The notes beneath the pieces are model-generated. The model saw nothing but the letters and a program-made list of their open reading frames with translations, did not search any database and was not told where the DNA came from. A DNA stretch of 64,000 bases from the IMG/VR virus record IMGVR_UViG_3300045015_000053; one strand, given 5' to 3'. Positions 2,980 through 63,441 of the stretch are shown here, in pieces. The first letter of the stretch is position 1, and the number at the start of each line of letters is the position of its first letter. The position numbers and the translations under genes are program-made. This stretch comes from a virus (taxonomy: Duplodnaviria; Caudoviricetes).

Positions 2980-3102
2980 ATGCTTGGTTTTGAACACCTT
3001 CACAGCGGTTTCGATTTTTCGATTCTGGATCAGTTCGTCACATGGGAACCCGACCATGAACCAATGGTTGAAGGCGATTTGGATGCGGAGTGCGTTTCCT
3101 AG
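2980..3102 (+). CDS. 40-aa ORF resembling the first strand of the DnaE PHP domain
   Basis: MLGFEHLHSGFDFSILDQF vs DnaE GLEHLHLHTDFSLLDGF; purine-rich RBS upstream. Confidence 0.45.
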   Translation: MLGFEHLHSGFDFSILDQFVTWEPDHEPMVEGDLDAECVS

Positions 3103-3292
3103 CGGGACACAGGTACGCATCACCGGCAACCACACCCTGGTAAAAGGGTCTTTGGTTTTGAACTGCACTGGTCTGACTGGCATAGTTGACCGCTATTGCC
3201 ATTGGTCCGACTGTTTCGTTGTGCTTCTGGACGATCCGCCGCACCACGAACTCTGGCTCGGCGAACTGGAGATCCAAAAGGTATTACCATGA
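3056..3292 (+). CDS. hypothetical protein
   Basis: ATG 3056; ATGA overlap with the dnaE start. Confidence 0.55.
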   Translation: MNQWLKAIWMRSAFPSGTQVRITGNHTLVKGSLVLNCTGLTGIVDRYCHWSDCFVVLLDDPPHHELWLGELEIQKVLP

Positions 3293-8978: not shown

Positions 8979-10028
8979 ATGAGCGACGACAAAGAACTCA
9001 ACGATATACTCGACGCTTCGCCCTCTCGCCGTCGTCGGCGGGACAGGGCCGACCACGACGAATCTCCCGCCGTCTGCGAAAAAGGGGTCGATCCCGACGC
9101 ATGGTCGCGGAGCAACGTTCAATGGACGAGCGGCGACGACCTCCGCTTCATCCCCGCCGCAAAGACGTGCCGTAAGCTTCCGCCCGGCGCATACGAAATC
9201 AAGTCCAATCCGAACGTCGGCACTTACTTCGAGAAGATCCCCGTCAGCATCGACGGGCTGGTGCGGTTTCCCCAAGCCAACACCGACAAGGTGCTTCTGG
9301 AGATCCAGAAGTTCTGGGAACGCGAAGCACTGTTCCGCGAGTACCGTCAGACCTACAAACGCGGCATCCTGATGTGGGGACCGCCCGGCGGCGGTAAGTC
9401 ATGCTGCATCAAGTTCGTGATGAAGGACGTGATCGAGGAACGCAAGGGCATCGTGATCAAGTTCACGAACCCGCACATGTTCGTTGAGGGCATGCGGATT
9501 CTGCGTGAGATCGAGCCGAACACGCCGGTCGTGGTGCTGCTCGAAGACATCGACTCGACCATCGAGCGGTGGAGCGAGACGGAAGTTCTCAACATCCTCG
9601 ACGGCGTGGACAAGATCGACCGCGTGGTCTTCCTCGCGACCACCAACTACCCCGAACTCCTCGGCGCGAGAATCATCAACCGGCCGAGCCGCTTCGACAA
9701 GCGGTTCAAGATCGACAAGCCGAACCCGGAATCGCGGATGATCTTCCTCAAGCACATCCTGTGCGACGAGGCGCGGGCGGCGAAAGAGAAACTGACCCCC
9801 GAAAAGCGGGAGCAGTTTATCAAGAAGCGTGCCGCCGAACTGGGCATCAATCTCGACAAGTGGGTGCGGGACTCGGACGGCTTCAGCATCTCGCACCTGA
9901 AGGAACTGTTCATCGCCGTCATCATCCTCGGCGACGAGTACGCCGACGCCATCAAGACCCTGAAGTCGATGAAGGATCAGATCAGGCACGGCGACGACGA
10001 CGGCACCACGAAGATGGGCTTCATTTGA
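8979..10028 (+). CDS. AAA+ ATPase (classic AAA clade)
   Basis: Walker A GPPGGGKS, Walker B LLEDID, SRH ATTNYPE...NRPSRFD. Confidence 0.88.
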   Translation: MSDDKELNDILDASPSRRRRRDRADHDESPAVCEKGVDPDAWSRSNVQWTSGDDLRFIPAAKTCRKLPPGAYEIKSNPNVGTYFEKIPVSIDGLVRFPQANTDKVLLEIQKFWEREALFREYRQTYKRGILMWGPPGGGKSCCIKFVMKDVIEERKGIVIKFTNPHMFVEGMRILREIEPNTPVVVLLEDIDSTIERWSETEVLNILDGVDKIDRVVFLATTNYPELLGARIINRPSRFDKRFKIDKPNPESRMIFLKHILCDEARAAKEKLTPEKREQFIKKRAAELGINLDKWVRDSDGFSISHLKELFIAVIILGDEYADAIKTLKSMKDQIRHGDDDGTTKMGFI

Positions 10029-57988: not shown

Positions 57989-58059
57989 TGCGGAGTGGAG
58001 GAGAGGTTCCTTGTGAGGCTCATAACCTCAAGACGCTGGTTCGAGTCCAGCCTCCGTAA
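57989..58059 (+). tRNA. tRNA-Met(CAT), initiator-like, copy 1
   Basis: TGAGG-CTCATAA-CCTCA; GCTGG-TTCGAGT-CCAGC; U1-A72. Confidence 0.85.
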
Positions 58060-58065
58060 CTAGAC

Positions 58066-58136
58066 TGCGGGTTGGAGGAGAGGTTCCTTGTGAGGCTCAT
58101 AACCTCAAGACACTGGTTCGAGTCCAGTACCCGCGA
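58066..58136 (+). tRNA. tRNA-Met(CAT), initiator-like, copy 2
   Basis: D and anticodon arms identical to copy 1; U1:G72. Confidence 0.85.
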
Positions 58137-58138
58137 CT

Positions 58139-58505
58139 CAGGCAGACGGAAAGAATTTTGGAAATCTGCCAAAAGGCGTGAACCACTTACGGGTGAAAGC
58201 GTCTATACTACACGGGCCGACGATGTCCATCCAAAAGGGATGGCTCACTCGACCCAAACCCAATGAAGCCGTAGGGGTGGATTTGGGGTCCAAATAATGC
58301 GAGTTCAATCTCGCGGAAGTCACTGCCATGTTCGTCGTAAACCACAAGCCAGGGAAACAGATGCAAGCGCAGGCAGTGCGCGTTTGCACTGGCATTACCG
58401 TCAACGGACCCGCCGCCGCATGGTGCGAACGTCCGCAAGGTAATGATAAGACCAAGACTCCCTGACTTCTCATCAGAGATCAGTCGGGGATTAACTCCCC
58501 CGGCG
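58139..58505 (+). ncRNA. about 365-nt structured non-coding RNA (family unassigned)
   Basis: Helices GGCAGA/TCTGCC, CCATCC/GGATGG, GCGAG-TTCAAT-CTCGC, ACTGCC/GGCAGT, CATTACC/GGTAATG, TCCCTGACT/AGTCGGGGA; terminator follows. Confidence 0.62.
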
Positions 58506-58514
58506 ATAGCACAC

Positions 58515-58560
58515 AAGAACCCTCGCCGGGGTCAAAGCTCTGGCGAGGGTTCTTTCGTTT
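58515..58560 (+). terminator. intrinsic terminator
   Basis: AAGAACCCTCGCC...GGCGAGGGTTCTT then TCGTTT. Confidence 0.8.
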
Positions 58561-58601
58561 GGGAGACTGAGATGACGTATAAACGCAGGGGCTTTTAATC
58601 T

Positions 58602-58675
58602 GGCCCCGAAAGCTTTAGCTAGATGAGCAACAGCCTTTTAAGCTGTGGAAGAGGGTGCGATTCCCTACGGGGCTA
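58602..58675 (+). tRNA. tRNA-Lys(TTT), non-canonical (A8, T loop TGCGATT)
   Basis: ACAGC-CTTTTAA-GCTGT; GGCCCCG/CGGGGCT. Confidence 0.8.
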
Positions 58676-58681
58676 CTGAAT

Positions 58682-58754
58682 GGCCCGCTTGCTACAACGG
58701 AGAAGCGCCGAGCTTTTAACTCGGTCACGGTCGGTTCGATTCCGACGCGGGCTA
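58682..58754 (+). tRNA. tRNA-Lys(TTT)
   Basis: CCGAG-CTTTTAA-CTCGG; TTCGATT T loop. Confidence 0.9.
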
Positions 58755-58771
58755 CTCCAAATGACGTGTAA

Positions 58772-58859
58772 TTGTGTTGTCGTTGTCACCGCGAGTTGCA
58801 TGCCAACTTGCTTGACAAAATCACACTGCAAAAGACTTACGAAGCTGAATGGGAAAGAC
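58772..58859 (+). pseudogene. 3' remnant of an HNH endonuclease
   Basis: After TAA 58769 the frame reads LCCRCHRELHANLL, like the CANCHRKIHHGLI/CSNCHRKLH ends of the two intact HNH genes. Confidence 0.55.
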
Positions 58860-58933
58860 GGCTGTGTAGCATAATTGGTAGTGCGACGGTTTCATAAGCC
58901 GTGTCAGCGTCGGTTCGACTCCGACCACAGCTA
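58860..58933 (+). tRNA. tRNA-Met(CAT), elongator-like (Ile2 not excluded)
   Basis: GGCTGTG/CACAGCT; ACGGT-TTCATAA-GCCGT. Confidence 0.85.
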
Positions 58934-58989
58934 CTAACGCCTGGATTCATCTCCGGGCCGTTCTTTGACAAGTAGGTAAGCCATAATAC

Positions 58990-59030
58990 GGTGACTCACA
59001 CGTCAATTACCAGTTGACGTGTGAGTCACC
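58990..59030. other. 17-bp perfect inverted repeat
   Basis: GGTGACTCACACGTCAA-ttaccag-TTGACGTGTGAGTCACC. Confidence 0.85.
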
Positions 59031-59036
59031 TGAAAC

Positions 59037-59108
59037 GGCCCGTTCGACTTCTGGCGAGGTCAGCAGTTTTTCAAACTGTTCAGGCGAGATCGAAACTCGC
59101 ACGGGTCA
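59037..59108 (+). tRNA. tRNA-Glu(TTC), non-canonical (T loop ATCGAAA)
   Basis: GGCCCGT/ACGGGTC; GCAGT-TTTTCAA-ACTGT; GCGAG/CTCGC. Confidence 0.75.
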
Positions 59109-59174
59109 CTGCACGACATTGCGGATGATAGAACCTGTCAAAAGGTTTAGCGCCTTCTGTAATGCGTGCTACAT

Positions 59175-59246
59175 GGCCCATTCGACTTCTAGTGAGGTCA
59201 CCTGTTTCTCGAACAGGTCAGGTCGGAGCGTAACCGACATGGGTCA
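59175..59246 (+). tRNA. tRNA-Glu(CTC), non-canonical (T loop AGCGTAA, no D-loop GG)
   Basis: GGCCCAT/ATGGGTC; CCTGT-TTCTCGA-ACAGG; GTCGG/CCGAC. Confidence 0.72.
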
Positions 59247-59265
59247 CTGACGGCTTCCAAAGAAT

Positions 59266-59336
59266 GCGGGATTGATGAAGTGGTATCGTGTCACGCTTCC
59301 AACGTGAACTCGCCGGTTCGATTCCGGCATCCCGTA
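59266..59336 (+). tRNA. tRNA-Gly(TCC)
   Basis: TCACG-CTTCCAA-CGTGA; A73. Confidence 0.9.
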
Positions 59337-59393
59337 CTTGCAAGGTTCCATTTTTGTCTATAGTGTGTGGGGCAACTCAAACACGAGGCAATC

Positions 59394-59690
59394 ATGAAAC
59401 GGCAAAAGATCAAGCTCGAAGGCGGTCCACTGGATGGCGCGGAGATGGAGGTCGATGAACACATCTTCAAGTCCATCTTGGCTCAAGGTGGGCTGACGCT
59501 GGAGTGGCCCTTCGAGGAAGAAAAGTTCGATCCGATGAAGTTTACAGTCAGGGCGAACAAACCCGTGACGTATCAGGATCGAGGAATGTCGTCAATCGAT
59601 GATCAACCGATTTACGACTACGAATCGGCGTACCCTCTGTGGTACGAAAACGACAAGGACCAGATCATGGAAATGATCAAAGGTAATTAA
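59394..59690 (+). CDS. hypothetical protein inside the tRNA array
   Basis: GAGG RBS; IKLEGGPLDG motif. Confidence 0.65.
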   Translation: MKRQKIKLEGGPLDGAEMEVDEHIFKSILAQGGLTLEWPFEEEKFDPMKFTVRANKPVTYQDRGMSSIDDQPIYDYESAYPLWYENDKDQIMEMIKGN

Positions 59691-59699
59691 GTTGATCTT

Positions 59700-59832
59700 G
59701 TTGTGGTAGCTCAGTAGTAGAGCAGCGGACATGGCGAAAGCCTGTTGTCTCGCAATTTTTGCCCGCAAGGGATGCCTGATGGGATTACATTTTAATCCGC
59801 CGGTCGCAGGGTGCGAATCCTTGCCCACAACA
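59700..59832 (+). tRNA. tRNA-Lys(TTT) with 59-nt intron-like insert (59731-59789) between positions 32 and 33
   Basis: GTTGTGG/CCACAAC-A; GCGGA/TCCGC stem; removing 59731-59789 gives loop C-TTTTAA. Confidence 0.75.
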
Positions 59833-59838
59833 CTAGAC

Positions 59839-59913
59839 TGCCGAAGATTCAGTGCTGGTACTGTAGTTCGCCTTTGAAGCGAAATGTCTCAGGTTCGATT
59901 CCTGATTCGGCAA
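59839..59913 (+). tRNA. tRNA-Gln(TTG), non-canonical D region
   Basis: TTCGC-CTTTGAA-GCGAA; G8 and extra linker nt around CAGT/ACTG. Confidence 0.8.
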
Positions 59914-59918
59914 CTTAC

Positions 59919-59992
59919 CAGGGCGTGGGAAAGCTTGGAAATCCGCTTGCGTCGGAAGCAAGAGATCGGCGGTTCAAATCCGCCCGCCCTGA
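59919..59992 (+). tRNA. tRNA-Pro(CGG), copy 1
   Basis: CAGGGCG/CGCCCTG; CTTGC-GTCGGAA-GCAAG. Confidence 0.85.
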
Positions 59993-59995
59993 CTT

Positions 59996-60066
59996 CGGGG
60001 ATTGGTATAGTGGAAGCACACATGCTTCGGGAGCATGTAGCGCAGGTTCGATTCCTGTATCCCCGA
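59996..60066 (+). tRNA. tRNA-Pro(CGG), copy 2
   Basis: CGGGGAT/ATCCCCG; CATGC-TTCGGGA-GCATG. Confidence 0.88.
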
Positions 60067-60116
60067 CTGAATAGGAAGGAATAGGAAAGCCTTCCGAAAT
60101 GATCGAAGTAAAACAT

Positions 60117-60191
60117 TGTCGAGGATTGAGTGCTGGTACTCTTGTCTGCCTCTGAAGCAGAATGTCTCAGGTTCGATTCCTGACTCGACAA
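60117..60191 (+). tRNA. tRNA-Gln(CTG), non-canonical D region
   Basis: TCTGC-CTCTGAA-GCAGA; variable and T arm identical to the 59839 copy. Confidence 0.8.
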
Positions 60192-60244
60192 CTAGATTGG
60201 CTCTGAGATTTGTGTTTTTCAGAGCCGACTTGCTAAGATAGTGT

Positions 60245-60664
60245 ATGAAGAAATGCACTATTTGTCGGCAAGATAAGGCTCTTGCCGACTTCAACAAAAA
60301 GCCAAGTACAAAAGACGGATACCAGACAAAGTGTCGCAAGTGCAGTAAGCGTCTTGCAAAGGCGCGGTACTACGACAATCGCGACACTGAAATGAAAAGA
60401 ATCAAGGACCGTCAAGAAGATCTTGCTAATCGGTTTTATGAATTCAAGCGAACTTTGCGGTGCGAGTTTTGTCCTGAGACAACAGCTTGCTGTTTGGACT
60501 TCCATCACCGCGACCCGAACTCGAAGGAATTCAACATCGCATTCGCTTGTCGCCAGGGTTACTCTTGGGACAAGCTCATGGAGGAAGTGAATAAGTGTGT
60601 GGTGGCCTGTGCGAACTGTCACAGGAAGATACATCACGGTTTGATTGATTGCCCGCTCGTATAA
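60245..60664 (+). mobile_element. HNH endonuclease, stop codon inside the next tRNA
   Basis: CTIC...KDGYQTKCRKC; CEFC...LDFHH...KCVVACANCHRKIH. Confidence 0.88.
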
Positions 60665-60720
60665 CGGTAGTACAACTGACTCTGACTCAGTTAGTGAAGG
60701 TTCGACTCCTTCGTGGGCAT
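60650..60720 (+). tRNA. tRNA-Gln(CTG)
   Basis: ACTGA-CTCTGAC-TCAGT. Confidence 0.88.
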
Positions 60721-60725
60721 CTGAC

Positions 60726-60796
60726 TGAGGAATCATCTAATGGTAGGATGCAAGGCTTTGACCCTTGTCGTGGCGGTTCGAGTCCGTCTTCCTCAA
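60726..60796 (+). tRNA. tRNA-Gln(TTG)
   Basis: CAAGG-CTTTGAC-CCTTG. Confidence 0.9.
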
Positions 60797-60798
60797 CT

Positions 60799-60856
60799 TC
60801 CGACATGTTAGGAGAGAACACGCCAAGTGCGGCAGGTTCGAGGTCTGCTGTCGGAT
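60799..60856 (+). ncRNA. 58-nt tRNA-like RNA without a normal anticodon arm
   Basis: TCCGACA/TGTCGGA; TGTT/AACA; CGC-CAAGT-GCG; GCAGG-TTCGAGG-TCTGC. Confidence 0.6.
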
Positions 60857-60858
60857 AC

Positions 60859-60929
60859 GCGGGATTCGTTTAGTGGCAAGATCCAACTTTCCCAAAGTTG
60901 AGTCGCCGGTTCGATTCCGGCATCCCGTA
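60859..60929 (+). tRNA. tRNA-Gly(CCC)
   Basis: CAACT-TTCCCAA-AGTTG; A73. Confidence 0.88.
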
Positions 60930-60933
60930 CTGT

Positions 60934-61006
60934 GGGCCATTGGCATGTCTGGCGATTGCAGCGGACTGTTAACCCGCCGAGGTTGGTTCGATTCCAACAT
61001 GGCCCT
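60934..61006 (+). tRNA. tRNA-Asn(GTT)
   Basis: GCGGA-CTGTTAA-CCCGC. Confidence 0.88.
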
Positions 61007-61026
61007 CTCGCTCCAAGAAAGGCAAC

Positions 61027-61281
61027 ATGAGCAAGACAACGTATTACCGGCAGTGCCGACTTCAACGCGGCAATTGCCACCAAGTGAGTTGGATTCCCGA
61101 ACCGTACTGCGTCAAGGACAAAGTCCTGAAGCTCAAGAACAGTGACGGTGTTTGGGAGAACGGATGGGTGGTGAAGGGAGCCGGAACCAACCGGATCACC
61201 GACGTGCCGCACGCCGAAGGTTTGATTCGCGCACACCGGAAAGCTACTGGTGATTCGCTGCCGAAAGGTCCGAACAATTGA
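61027..61281 (+). CDS. hypothetical protein inside the tRNA array
   Basis: AAGG RBS; YRQC.L...VSWIP. Confidence 0.65.
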   Translation: MSKTTYYRQCRLQRGNCHQVSWIPEPYCVKDKVLKLKNSDGVWENGWVVKGAGTNRITDVPHAEGLIRAHRKATGDSLPKGPNN

Positions 61282-61284
61282 AAC

Positions 61285-61342
61285 AGGGGCAGGGTTTAGC
61301 CACCCTGATCGGTCGGGAGTAGCTACCCCGCCCGTGGCCCCT
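61285..61342 (+). ncRNA. two-arm tRNA-like element
   Basis: GGGGC/GCCCC closing helix; AGGGT-6 nt-ACCCT; GGtcGGG-AGTAGCTA-CCCcgCC. Confidence 0.4.
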
Positions 61343-61346
61343 ACAC

Positions 61347-61417
61347 GCGGGATTCGTTAAGTGGTAAGACGCATGCTTGCCAAGCATGAGACGCCGGTTC
61401 GATTCCGGCATCCCGCA
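61347..61417 (+). tRNA. tRNA-Gly(GCC)
   Basis: CATGC-TTGCCAA-GCATG; A73. Confidence 0.9.
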
Positions 61418-61544
61418 CTCCGATTTTGAAGGCTCTGGTTCCCCTTGTGGGTGGTAAAAAGATCGCGCATAATCATCACGTTGCTGCGATTGGGCTGTAG
61501 AAATCGAAACCCCCAATGTCTGCGTAGCAGACAGGGAGTAAGTG

Positions 61545-62720
<1,176 letters not shown>

Positions 62721-62783
62721 AGATCTAGTAGTTAAACAGGGGGAGAACTGGCCCCCACCCCGTCGCGAGACGGGGCTACTGAT

Positions 62784-62854
62784 GGCCCTATAGTCTAGTG
62801 GCAGGACGTAACCCTCTCAAGGTTAAGATTGGAGTTCGATTCTCCATAGGGTCA
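62784..62854 (+). tRNA. tRNA-Glu(CTC)
   Basis: TAACC-CTCTCAA-GGTTA; TTCGATT T loop. Confidence 0.9.
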
Positions 62855-62903
62855 CAGGCTCGACTACGTCCGACGCTCAGTTTTTCGGACGTTATAATTT
62901 GTC

Positions 62904-63329
62904 ATGGAGAAGACATGTTACAAGTGTAAACAATTGAAGCTTGCGGACGAGTTCTCGAAAGATACTCGGAGTAAAGATGGGTTGTGTGCGGCTTGTAGAG
63001 CTTGCCGAAGCGAGCTTAAAAAGCAGTATTACAACCGCGAACATGATGGCTTGAGGATCAAGCAGCTTGAGAAGCGTCGGAAGCTTCAGGATTGGGTTAG
63101 CACATTCAAGAAAGAGTGTAGTGTTTGCGGAGAGGATCATCCGGCTTGTTTGGATTTTCATCATGATGGCGAGAAGGAAGCAGGTATTGCCAACATGATC
63201 AATCGCAACAATATGACCGACGAAATGAGATCGAAGGTTTTGGCTGAGATCGCCAAATGCAAAGTCTTGTGTTCAAACTGTCACAGGAAGTTGCACTGGA
63301 AAGAAAGAAGAGAAGGCCCATTCGTCTAG
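62904..63329 (+). mobile_element. HNH endonuclease (paralog of 60245), stop codon inside the next tRNA
   Basis: CYKC...KDGLCAACRAC; CSVCGEDHPACLDFHH...KCKVLCSNCHRKLH; TATAAT plus 5 nt before ATG. Confidence 0.88.
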
Positions 63330-63385
63330 TGGTAGGACATCAGATTTTCACTCTGACAACCGGAGTTCAATTCTCCGATGGGTCA
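63315..63385 (+). tRNA. tRNA-Glu(TTC)
   Basis: TCAGA-TTTTCAC-TCTGA; TTCAATT T loop. Confidence 0.9.
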
Positions 63386-63441
63386 CTCAAAAGAAAGAAA
63401 CGAATCGGTATATACCCCACAGGCCGAACACAAGGGGTTTC

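What the first reader, a model, noticed from the sequence alone, without database searches (positions are those of the whole stretch)
60799..60856. 58-nt anticodon-less mini-tRNA inside the array
Seen: a perfect 7-bp acceptor, a 4-bp D-like arm and a T arm with TTCGA, but only a 3-bp/5-nt hairpin where the anticodon arm should be. It is spaced 2 nt from both neighbours, like a normal array member. Inference: an elbow-preserving mimic (EF-Tu, RNase P or toxin decoy; tmRNA-TLD-like) rather than debris.
Basis: partly seen in the sequence, partly recalled or inferred. Interest (0 to 1): 0.6.

Follow-up and report, generated by a model that had tools for sequence, protein, structure and literature searches.

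The report
Orphan anticodon-less mini-tRNA in huge phage
Between two normal tRNA genes of a huge uncultured phage sits a 58-base gene shaped like a shrunken tRNA with no anticodon, laid out like the vertebrate mascRNA; its design does not look accidental, but no related phage has it, so a function is not shown.

Summary
60799-60856 has a 7/7 Watson-Crick acceptor, a T arm with TTCGA, and a 26-nt core that tiles, with no linker bases, into a 4-bp and a 3-bp hairpin. That tiling occurs in 0.02% of shuffled cores (0.4-2% on looser rules) and about 0.1% of simulated tRNA deletions. The core is not a one-step deletion of an ordinary tRNA. Length and arm coordinates equal those of mascRNA, a known linkerless L-shaped mimic. 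It is identical in three other assemblies of this phage, so it is not an artefact. Against function: it is an orphan. The closest relative (tuf 95% nt) has only a 6-nt spacer there, five other relatives lack it, and no homolog was found in IMG/VR, GTDB or a metagenome sample. It also carries G53·U61 and G60 (0 of 179 clade tRNAs) and lacks C74, and a rod fold is predicted to be more stable. tmRNA-like or charged EF-Tu roles are unlikely (no alanine or glycine identity set). Best reading: an uncharged tRNA-shaped RNA cut out of the operon transcript, a lineage-specific decoy or handle (0.45); an inert passenger remains possible (0.3). The scan has already noted conserved anticodon-less mini-tRNAs in other phages; I found no sequence homolog among them.

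The parts
60799..60856 (+). 58-nt anticodon-less tRNA-like gene (whole element)
   Evidence: identical in three other assemblies L041-L043
60799..60805 (+). acceptor stem 5' strand (U1-A72, C2-G71, C3-G70); this acceptor belongs mostly to tRNA-Asn elsewhere
   Evidence: pair probabilities 0.83-1.0; 62 of 88 distinct matches read GTT
60806..60820 (+). D-like hairpin starting directly at nt 8, 4 WC pairs, 7-nt purine loop with GG at 60811-60812
   Evidence: a drawn fold, not the predicted minimum
60821..60831 (+). 3-bp/5-nt hairpin in place of the anticodon arm; no variable loop
60832..60848 (+). T arm, loop TTCGAGG; non-canonical G60 (60843) and U61 (60844, G53·U61 wobble)
60849..60856 (+). acceptor 3' strand and U73 discriminator; no encoded CCA and no C74
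60726..60797 (+). upstream neighbour tRNA-Gln(ttg)
60859..60930 (+). downstream neighbour tRNA-Gly(ccc); RNase P cleavage at its 5' end would free the element's 3' end (inference)
57989..63386 (+). context: part of the phage tRNA array with interspersed small ORFs and a planctomycete-type EF-Tu gene (61542-62720)

Best explanation
A lineage-specific, non-decoding tRNA mimic. Shown: it keeps an ordinary tRNA top half (acceptor plus T arm) and replaces the bottom half with two short hairpins joined without linker bases, the layout of mascRNA. Inferred: it is co-transcribed with the tRNA array and released as a small RNA when host RNase P cuts at its own 5' end and at the 5' end of Gly(ccc), followed by 3' trimming and possibly CCA addition. 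It would fold into a compact L through GG/T-loop contacts and stay uncharged. It would then act as a decoy or binding handle for proteins that read the acceptor-T helix and elbow (processing, modification or tRNA-attacking defence enzymes), not on the ribosome. The partner is not identified.
For: Acceptor plus T arm close the spacer exactly (0 of 100,000 shuffles). Linkerless 4+3 WC tiling: 0.02% of shuffles, 0.065% of genome 26-mers, 0.07-0.12% of simulated 1-4-deletion products of real tRNAs (2.6% if G·U is allowed). The top half is intact (30 of 32 positions equal to a real tRNA-Asn, though 20 of these were fixed by my search pattern), while the core resembles no tRNA. Uniform neutral decay would not give that asymmetry. 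Coordinates match human mascRNA (acceptor 1-7/51-57, T stem-loop 34-50, no linker residues, GG at 14-15; PMC11693755); here GG is at 13-14. mascRNA is reported inactive in aminoacylation (PMC9976931). This phage group carries other non-decoding tRNA-shelled RNAs in the same block.
Against: No homolog, so no covariation test was possible. Absent at the same slot in L050, whose flanking tRNAs are 90-93% identical. G53·U61 in 0 of 179 and G60 in 0 of 179 clade tRNAs; C74 in 169 of 179 but not here (that set is biased to canonical genes by ARAGORN). The Rfam mascRNA consensus keeps C61. A rod fold pairing the D-like loop with the T loop is predicted 1-6.6 kcal/mol more stable, whereas all 48 correctly parsed tRNAs of this record are within 2.5 kcal/mol of their T-arm fold. 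A pyrimidine discriminator is disfavoured by the human CCA enzyme (PMC4477674). No expression data.
Confidence: 0.45

Rival explanations
1. Inert passenger: the remnant of a U1-A72 tRNA (Asn or Gln class) or of another tRNA-shelled RNA, remodelled by several deletions or a recombination, recently gained in a fast-turnover array and tolerated. It would be excised with the spacer and degraded, probably folded as a rod.
For: Orphan status; absent in six relatives. U61, G60 and loss of C74 are what relaxed selection gives. Rod fold favoured. Removing the 57 paired nt leaves CTTAC, a spacer used elsewhere in this array. The same block takes other lineage-specific inserts, including an HNH-like ORF here and a 139-nt element in L050. 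A tRNA parent supplies D and anticodon stem pairs for free.
Against: A one-step deletion is rejected. Random deletions give the all-WC linkerless junction in about 0.1% of cases. No mismatch in the 12 acceptor and T-stem pairs while the core is unrecognisable.
Confidence: 0.3
2. Cis-acting processing signal only (t-element): the fold gives RNase P and a 3' nuclease an extra cut between Gln(ttg) and Gly(ccc), and the released RNA has no role.
For: The top half is the part kept. Spacers are 2 nt on both sides. Plant mitochondrial t-elements act this way (PMC1920247).
Against: The two neighbours are processed without it in L050, where only 6 nt separate them, so no extra signal is needed. U61 departs from the GGTTCRANYCC motif used to define t-elements.
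Confidence: 0.17
3. Aminoacylated or ribosome-entering mimic (tmRNA tRNA-like-domain type, SmpB sink or EF-Tu cargo).
For: An EF-Tu gene lies about 700 nt downstream. U73 alone confers cysteine identity on minihelices (PMC9976931). A TLD-only RNA exists in mycobacteriophage DS6A (PMC4131195).
Against: No G3·U70, A73 or G2-C71 (alanine). It meets only U73 and C2-G71 of the bacterial glycine set, and only U73 and C3-G70 of the cysteine set. No tag frame; ARAGORN calls no tmRNA. No SmpB in the held 188-kb fragment (record about 37% complete). PTH2 lies 71 kb away.
Confidence: 0.08

Closest known systems
mascRNA / menRNA (Rfam RF01684; structures in PMC11693755)
   Same: 58 nt; acceptor 1-7/51-57 and T stem-loop 34-50 at the same coordinates; 26-nt core of two hairpins with no single-stranded linkers; GG in the D-like loop at nearly the same position; no anticodon; no encoded CCA.
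   Different: Vertebrate, at the 3' end of MALAT1/MEN-beta, conserved. Arm sizes are swapped (D 11 nt and anticodon-like 15 nt in mascRNA; 15 and 11 here). The Rfam consensus keeps C61. No RF01684 match here at E up to 10. An analogue, not a homologue.
Canonical tRNA (RF00005), U1-A72 class, mainly tRNA-Asn(GTT)
   Same: Acceptor sequence, U8 and most of the T arm; position inside a tRNA array.
   Different: No anticodon loop, no variable loop, no nt 8-9 linker; G60, U61, U73 instead of G73; no RF00005 or ARAGORN call.
Plant mitochondrial t-elements (PMC1920247)
   Same: Non-canonical tRNA-like structure with a T arm and acceptor that could be cut by RNase P and RNase Z.
   Different: t-elements mark mRNA ends; this one lies between two tRNAs that need no extra signal.
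tmRNA tRNA-like domain and the TLD-only RNA of mycobacteriophage DS6A (PMC4131195)
   Same: Small, phage-borne, lacks an anticodon stem-loop.
   Different: No alanine identity, a paired D-like stem, no tmRNA call.
Phage T4 RNA C and RNA D (species 1 and 2; PMC12685909)
   Same: Phage non-coding RNAs of unknown function; their location in the T4 tRNA cluster is from my own knowledge.
   Different: About 120-140 nt; sequences were not compared here.

Membership tests
tRNA (RF00005) | 7-bp acceptor stem and T arm in canonical register | tested here: met
tRNA (RF00005) | 5-bp anticodon stem with 7-nt loop and U33 | tested here: not met
   3 bp and a 5-nt loop
tRNA (RF00005) | G53-C61 and Y60 | tested here: not met
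   G53·U61 and G60; 0 of 179 clade tRNAs
tRNA (RF00005) | Covariance-model score over 29 bits | tested here: not met
   no hit at E up to 10
mascRNA-menRNA (RF01684) | About 58 nt, linkerless four-way junction, acceptor 1-7/51-57, T stem-loop 34-50 | tested here: met
   (pairing potential; not the predicted minimum)
mascRNA-menRNA (RF01684) | [quoted passage not shown] | tested here: inconclusive
   GG at nt 13-14 versus 14-15 in mascRNA; the contact cannot be tested
mascRNA-menRNA (RF01684) | Sequence and structure match to the family model | tested here: not met
mascRNA-menRNA (RF01684) | Lies 3' of a triple-helix lncRNA end in a vertebrate | tested here: not met
   lies between two phage tRNA genes
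mascRNA-menRNA (RF01684) | Processed by RNase P and RNase Z and CCA-tailed | not testable with these tools
   needs RNA data
tmRNA tRNA-like domain | Alanine identity (G3·U70, A73, G2-C71) | tested here: not met
   C3-G70, U73, C2-G71 (identity table)
tmRNA tRNA-like domain | SmpB binding | not testable with these tools
   no smpB in the held fragment, which is incomplete
t-element | GGTTCRANYCC T-arm motif | tested here: not met
   reads GGTTCGAGGTC; motif from PMC1920247
t-element | Ends coincide with mapped transcript termini | not testable with these tools
   no transcript data
tRNA pseudogene by single deletion | Core equals the 5' and 3' parts of an ordinary tRNA core | tested here: not met
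   minimum 12 mismatches; shuffles median 11; real deletion products median about 4
YrlA / bacterial Y RNA (RF02553) | Match to the YrlA model | tested here: not met
   no hit at this place at E up to 1

The most novel reading that the evidence does not exclude
A bacterial virus has independently arrived at the mascRNA architecture, a 58-nt linkerless L-shaped tRNA mimic, and uses it as a stable uncharged RNA that binds or distracts a host tRNA-recognising protein such as a defence nuclease or a synthetase.
Probability: 0.25. Interest if true: 0.7.

Novelty: new variant of a known kind. Interest (0 to 1): 0.4.

Why it matters
If it folds as drawn, it is a bacterial-virus case of the minimal linkerless tRNA fold so far solved only for vertebrate mascRNA and menRNA. 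That would show the fold can arise independently, and it gives a 58-nt RNA that is cheap to test for the minimum that RNase P, CCA-adding enzyme and defence nucleases need. It also adds to the picture that huge-phage tRNA arrays gain and lose non-decoding tRNA look-alikes quickly. If it is a passenger, it matters little. Conserved mini-tRNA families noted in other phages are better first targets than this orphan.

Tried and rejected
Assembly artefact: rejected; identical in two JGI assemblies and one Logan assembly. Degenerate Gly(GCC), suggested by GCCAA in the small loop and U73: not supported, acceptor lacks G1-C72 and G3-C70 and the core scores no better than shuffles. Derivation from the 126-133-nt tRNA-shelled family through its D arm: 10.5% of shuffles score as well. 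Co-transfer with the upstream HNH-like ORF: homologs at 36-64% identity carry no such element nearby. Link to PTH2: the gene is 71 kb away with no mini-tRNA beside it. Promoter and terminator scan uninformative. One paper search failed on a two-letter term.

Full report
Setting. The window lies in a 188,369-nt linear virus record, about 37% complete, with 50 ARAGORN tRNA calls and no tmRNA. An EF-Tu gene follows the array; its named homologs at about 72% identity are from Gemmataceae and Planctomycetes, so a planctomycete host is likely (inference). The same phage has a 475,914-nt assembly, so it is a huge phage.

Observation. The element sits between tRNA-Gln(ttg) 60726-60797 and tRNA-Gly(ccc) 60859-60930. 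It reads acceptor 1-7, hairpin 8-22 (4 WC pairs, loop AGGAGAG), hairpin 23-33 (3 WC pairs, 5-nt loop), T arm 34-50 (loop TTCGAGG), acceptor 51-57, U58. No shuffle of the 61-nt spacer in 100,000 gives acceptor plus T arm. The linker-free 4+3 WC tiling appears in 0.02% of shuffled cores, 0.3-0.4% with G·U, and up to 1.7% with two linker bases; the statistic was chosen after the fact, so the looser values are the fairer ones. The sequence is identical in three other assemblies. ARAGORN and Rfam miss it.

Departures from a normal array member. Among 179 tRNAs of this phage and its six nearest relatives, all have C61, none has G60 and 169 have C74; the element has U61, G60 and A74. Other spacers in this record are 3 nt or more and start with CT; 2-nt spacers do occur once each in two relatives. 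ViennaRNA prefers a rod in which the D-like loop pairs with the T loop, -22.6 against -16.0 kcal/mol. The gap is 5.2 with coaxial stacking and 1-5 with other parameter sets. All 48 correctly parsed tRNAs of the record lie within 2.5 kcal/mol of their T-arm fold. A gap this large occurs in 28% of shuffled cores, so it is unremarkable for such short arms, but it leaves the fold unproven.

Conservation. EF-Tu homologs gave six relatives with the same Met-Lys-Glu-Gly-Gln-Pro-Gly block: L050 (tuf 95% nt; flanking tRNAs 90% and 93%), L044, L045-L047, L048, L049 and L221. In L050 Gln(ttg) and Gly(ccc) are adjacent with a 6-nt spacer; none of the six has the element or a full tRNA with its acceptor in this block. 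Pattern, BLAST, covariance-model and descriptor searches found no homolog. The element is an orphan in the data reached, and covariation could not be tested.

Origin. The acceptor is common in real tRNAs: 62 of 88 distinct matches are Asn(GTT), mostly with G73, and one Asn equals the element at 30 of 32 top-half positions (20 were fixed by the pattern). The 26-nt core matches 936 tRNAs no better than shuffles. It is 12 mismatches from the nearest single-deletion product, against a median of 11 for shuffles and about 4 for real deletion products. An intact top half over a wholly remodelled, fully paired bottom half points to selection on shape at some time, though not necessarily now.

Mechanism. 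Shown: no anticodon loop, so no decoding; no complete acceptor identity set for alanine, glycine or cysteine (table in PMC9976931). Inferred: it is transcribed with the array, released by RNase P cuts at its 5' end and at Gly(ccc) plus 3' trimming, folds into a compact L through GG/T-loop contacts, and stays uncharged, acting as a decoy or handle for proteins that read the top half and elbow (0.45). Rivals: inert passenger (0.3); processing signal only (0.17), weakened because L050 needs none; charged or tmRNA-like mimic (0.08), weakened by C3-G70, no SmpB in the held fragment and PTH2 71 kb away.

Comparison. Human mascRNA has acceptor 1-7/51-57, T stem-loop 34-50, D 8-18 and anticodon-like arm 19-33, lacks the eight linker residues, and forms an L through G14/G15 (PMC11693755). 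The element has the same length and outer coordinates, the two inner arm sizes swapped, and GG at 13-14. It is not a family member: no RF01684 match, the consensus keeps C61, and the context differs. It works, if at all, like mascRNA or a t-element (PMC1920247), not like the TLD-only RNA of phage DS6A (PMC4131195). T4 RNA C and D are older examples of phage non-coding RNAs of unknown role (PMC12685909). I found no paper on such an element in phages in seven searches, which does not cover most subscription journals. Earlier scan notes list conserved anticodon-less mini-tRNAs in other phages; I did not check them, and the sequence look-up matched only this window.

Verdict. Real and non-random, a new variant of the non-decoding tRNA mimics, with function unproven because it is unconserved and carries three non-canonical positions. 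Interest 0.4.

Noticed in passing
window 59700-59832 (G000 68822-68954); paralogs G000 73327-73454 and 73993-74119; L050:8559, L044:8229 and 12704, L045:8770 and 12290, L048:8973 and 12532, L049:1719, L221:2084 and 3948: Conserved 126-133-nt tRNA-shelled RNA with a 7-bp acceptor and a 6-bp T stem (13-bp branch) in 13 copies from 7 phages, acceptor sequences varying while paired. The anticodon loop is replaced by a long insert with conserved TTTTGCCC-GCAA-GGGATG and GGGATTACAT blocks. No Rfam hit.
   Followed up: partly
L050:9080-9218: The closest relative has its own insert one slot upstream: a 139-nt RNA closed by a terminal stem of about 15 bp and holding a 38-nt acceptor-plus-T minihelix at 9158-9195.
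   Followed up: partly
window 60245-60664 and 62904-63329: Two HNH-like ORFs (DFHH and CxNCH motifs; no Pfam hit) whose last codons overlap the 5' ends of tRNA-Gln(ctg) 60650 and tRNA-Glu(ttc) 63315; homologs also lie in phage tRNA arrays.
   Followed up: partly
window 60193-60291: Three tandem perfect or near-perfect hairpins between tRNA-Gln(ctg) 60117 and the HNH-like ORF, the last two overlapping its start; no match in relatives.
   Followed up: partly
window 58170-58245; L050:7407, L044 near 6310, L045:7671, L048 near 7905: Conserved structured non-coding block after the second tRNA-Met, with a shared GGCGACGA-GTCCA motif; no Rfam hit.
   Followed up: no
L044:8512-8616, L045:9229-9348, L049 near 2400-2513: A roughly 100-nt element with a shared GCCGAGCTAG...GTAGG motif between tRNAs in three relatives, absent from this window.
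   Followed up: no
L048 near 9426, L049:3949-4030, L221 near 3049-3129, L044 near 9650: An element of about 80 nt with GCCGGT...GCCCGGAGT and CTATA...GACG...AAAGTC blocks next to Gly or Asn tRNAs in four relatives.
   Followed up: no
window 58603-58674: A deviant tRNA-Lys(ttt) missed by default ARAGORN, Rfam 30.5 bits.
   Followed up: no
G000 133511-133699 and 140802-141155: A weak TROVE (Ro60) match, E 2.3e-5 and under the cut-off, and a clear PTH2 gene elsewhere in the record.
   Followed up: partly
whole clade arrays (G000, L044, L047-L050, L221): CCA is not encoded; 164 of 179 tRNA genes are followed by CT after the discriminator, a strong processing signature.
   Followed up: partly
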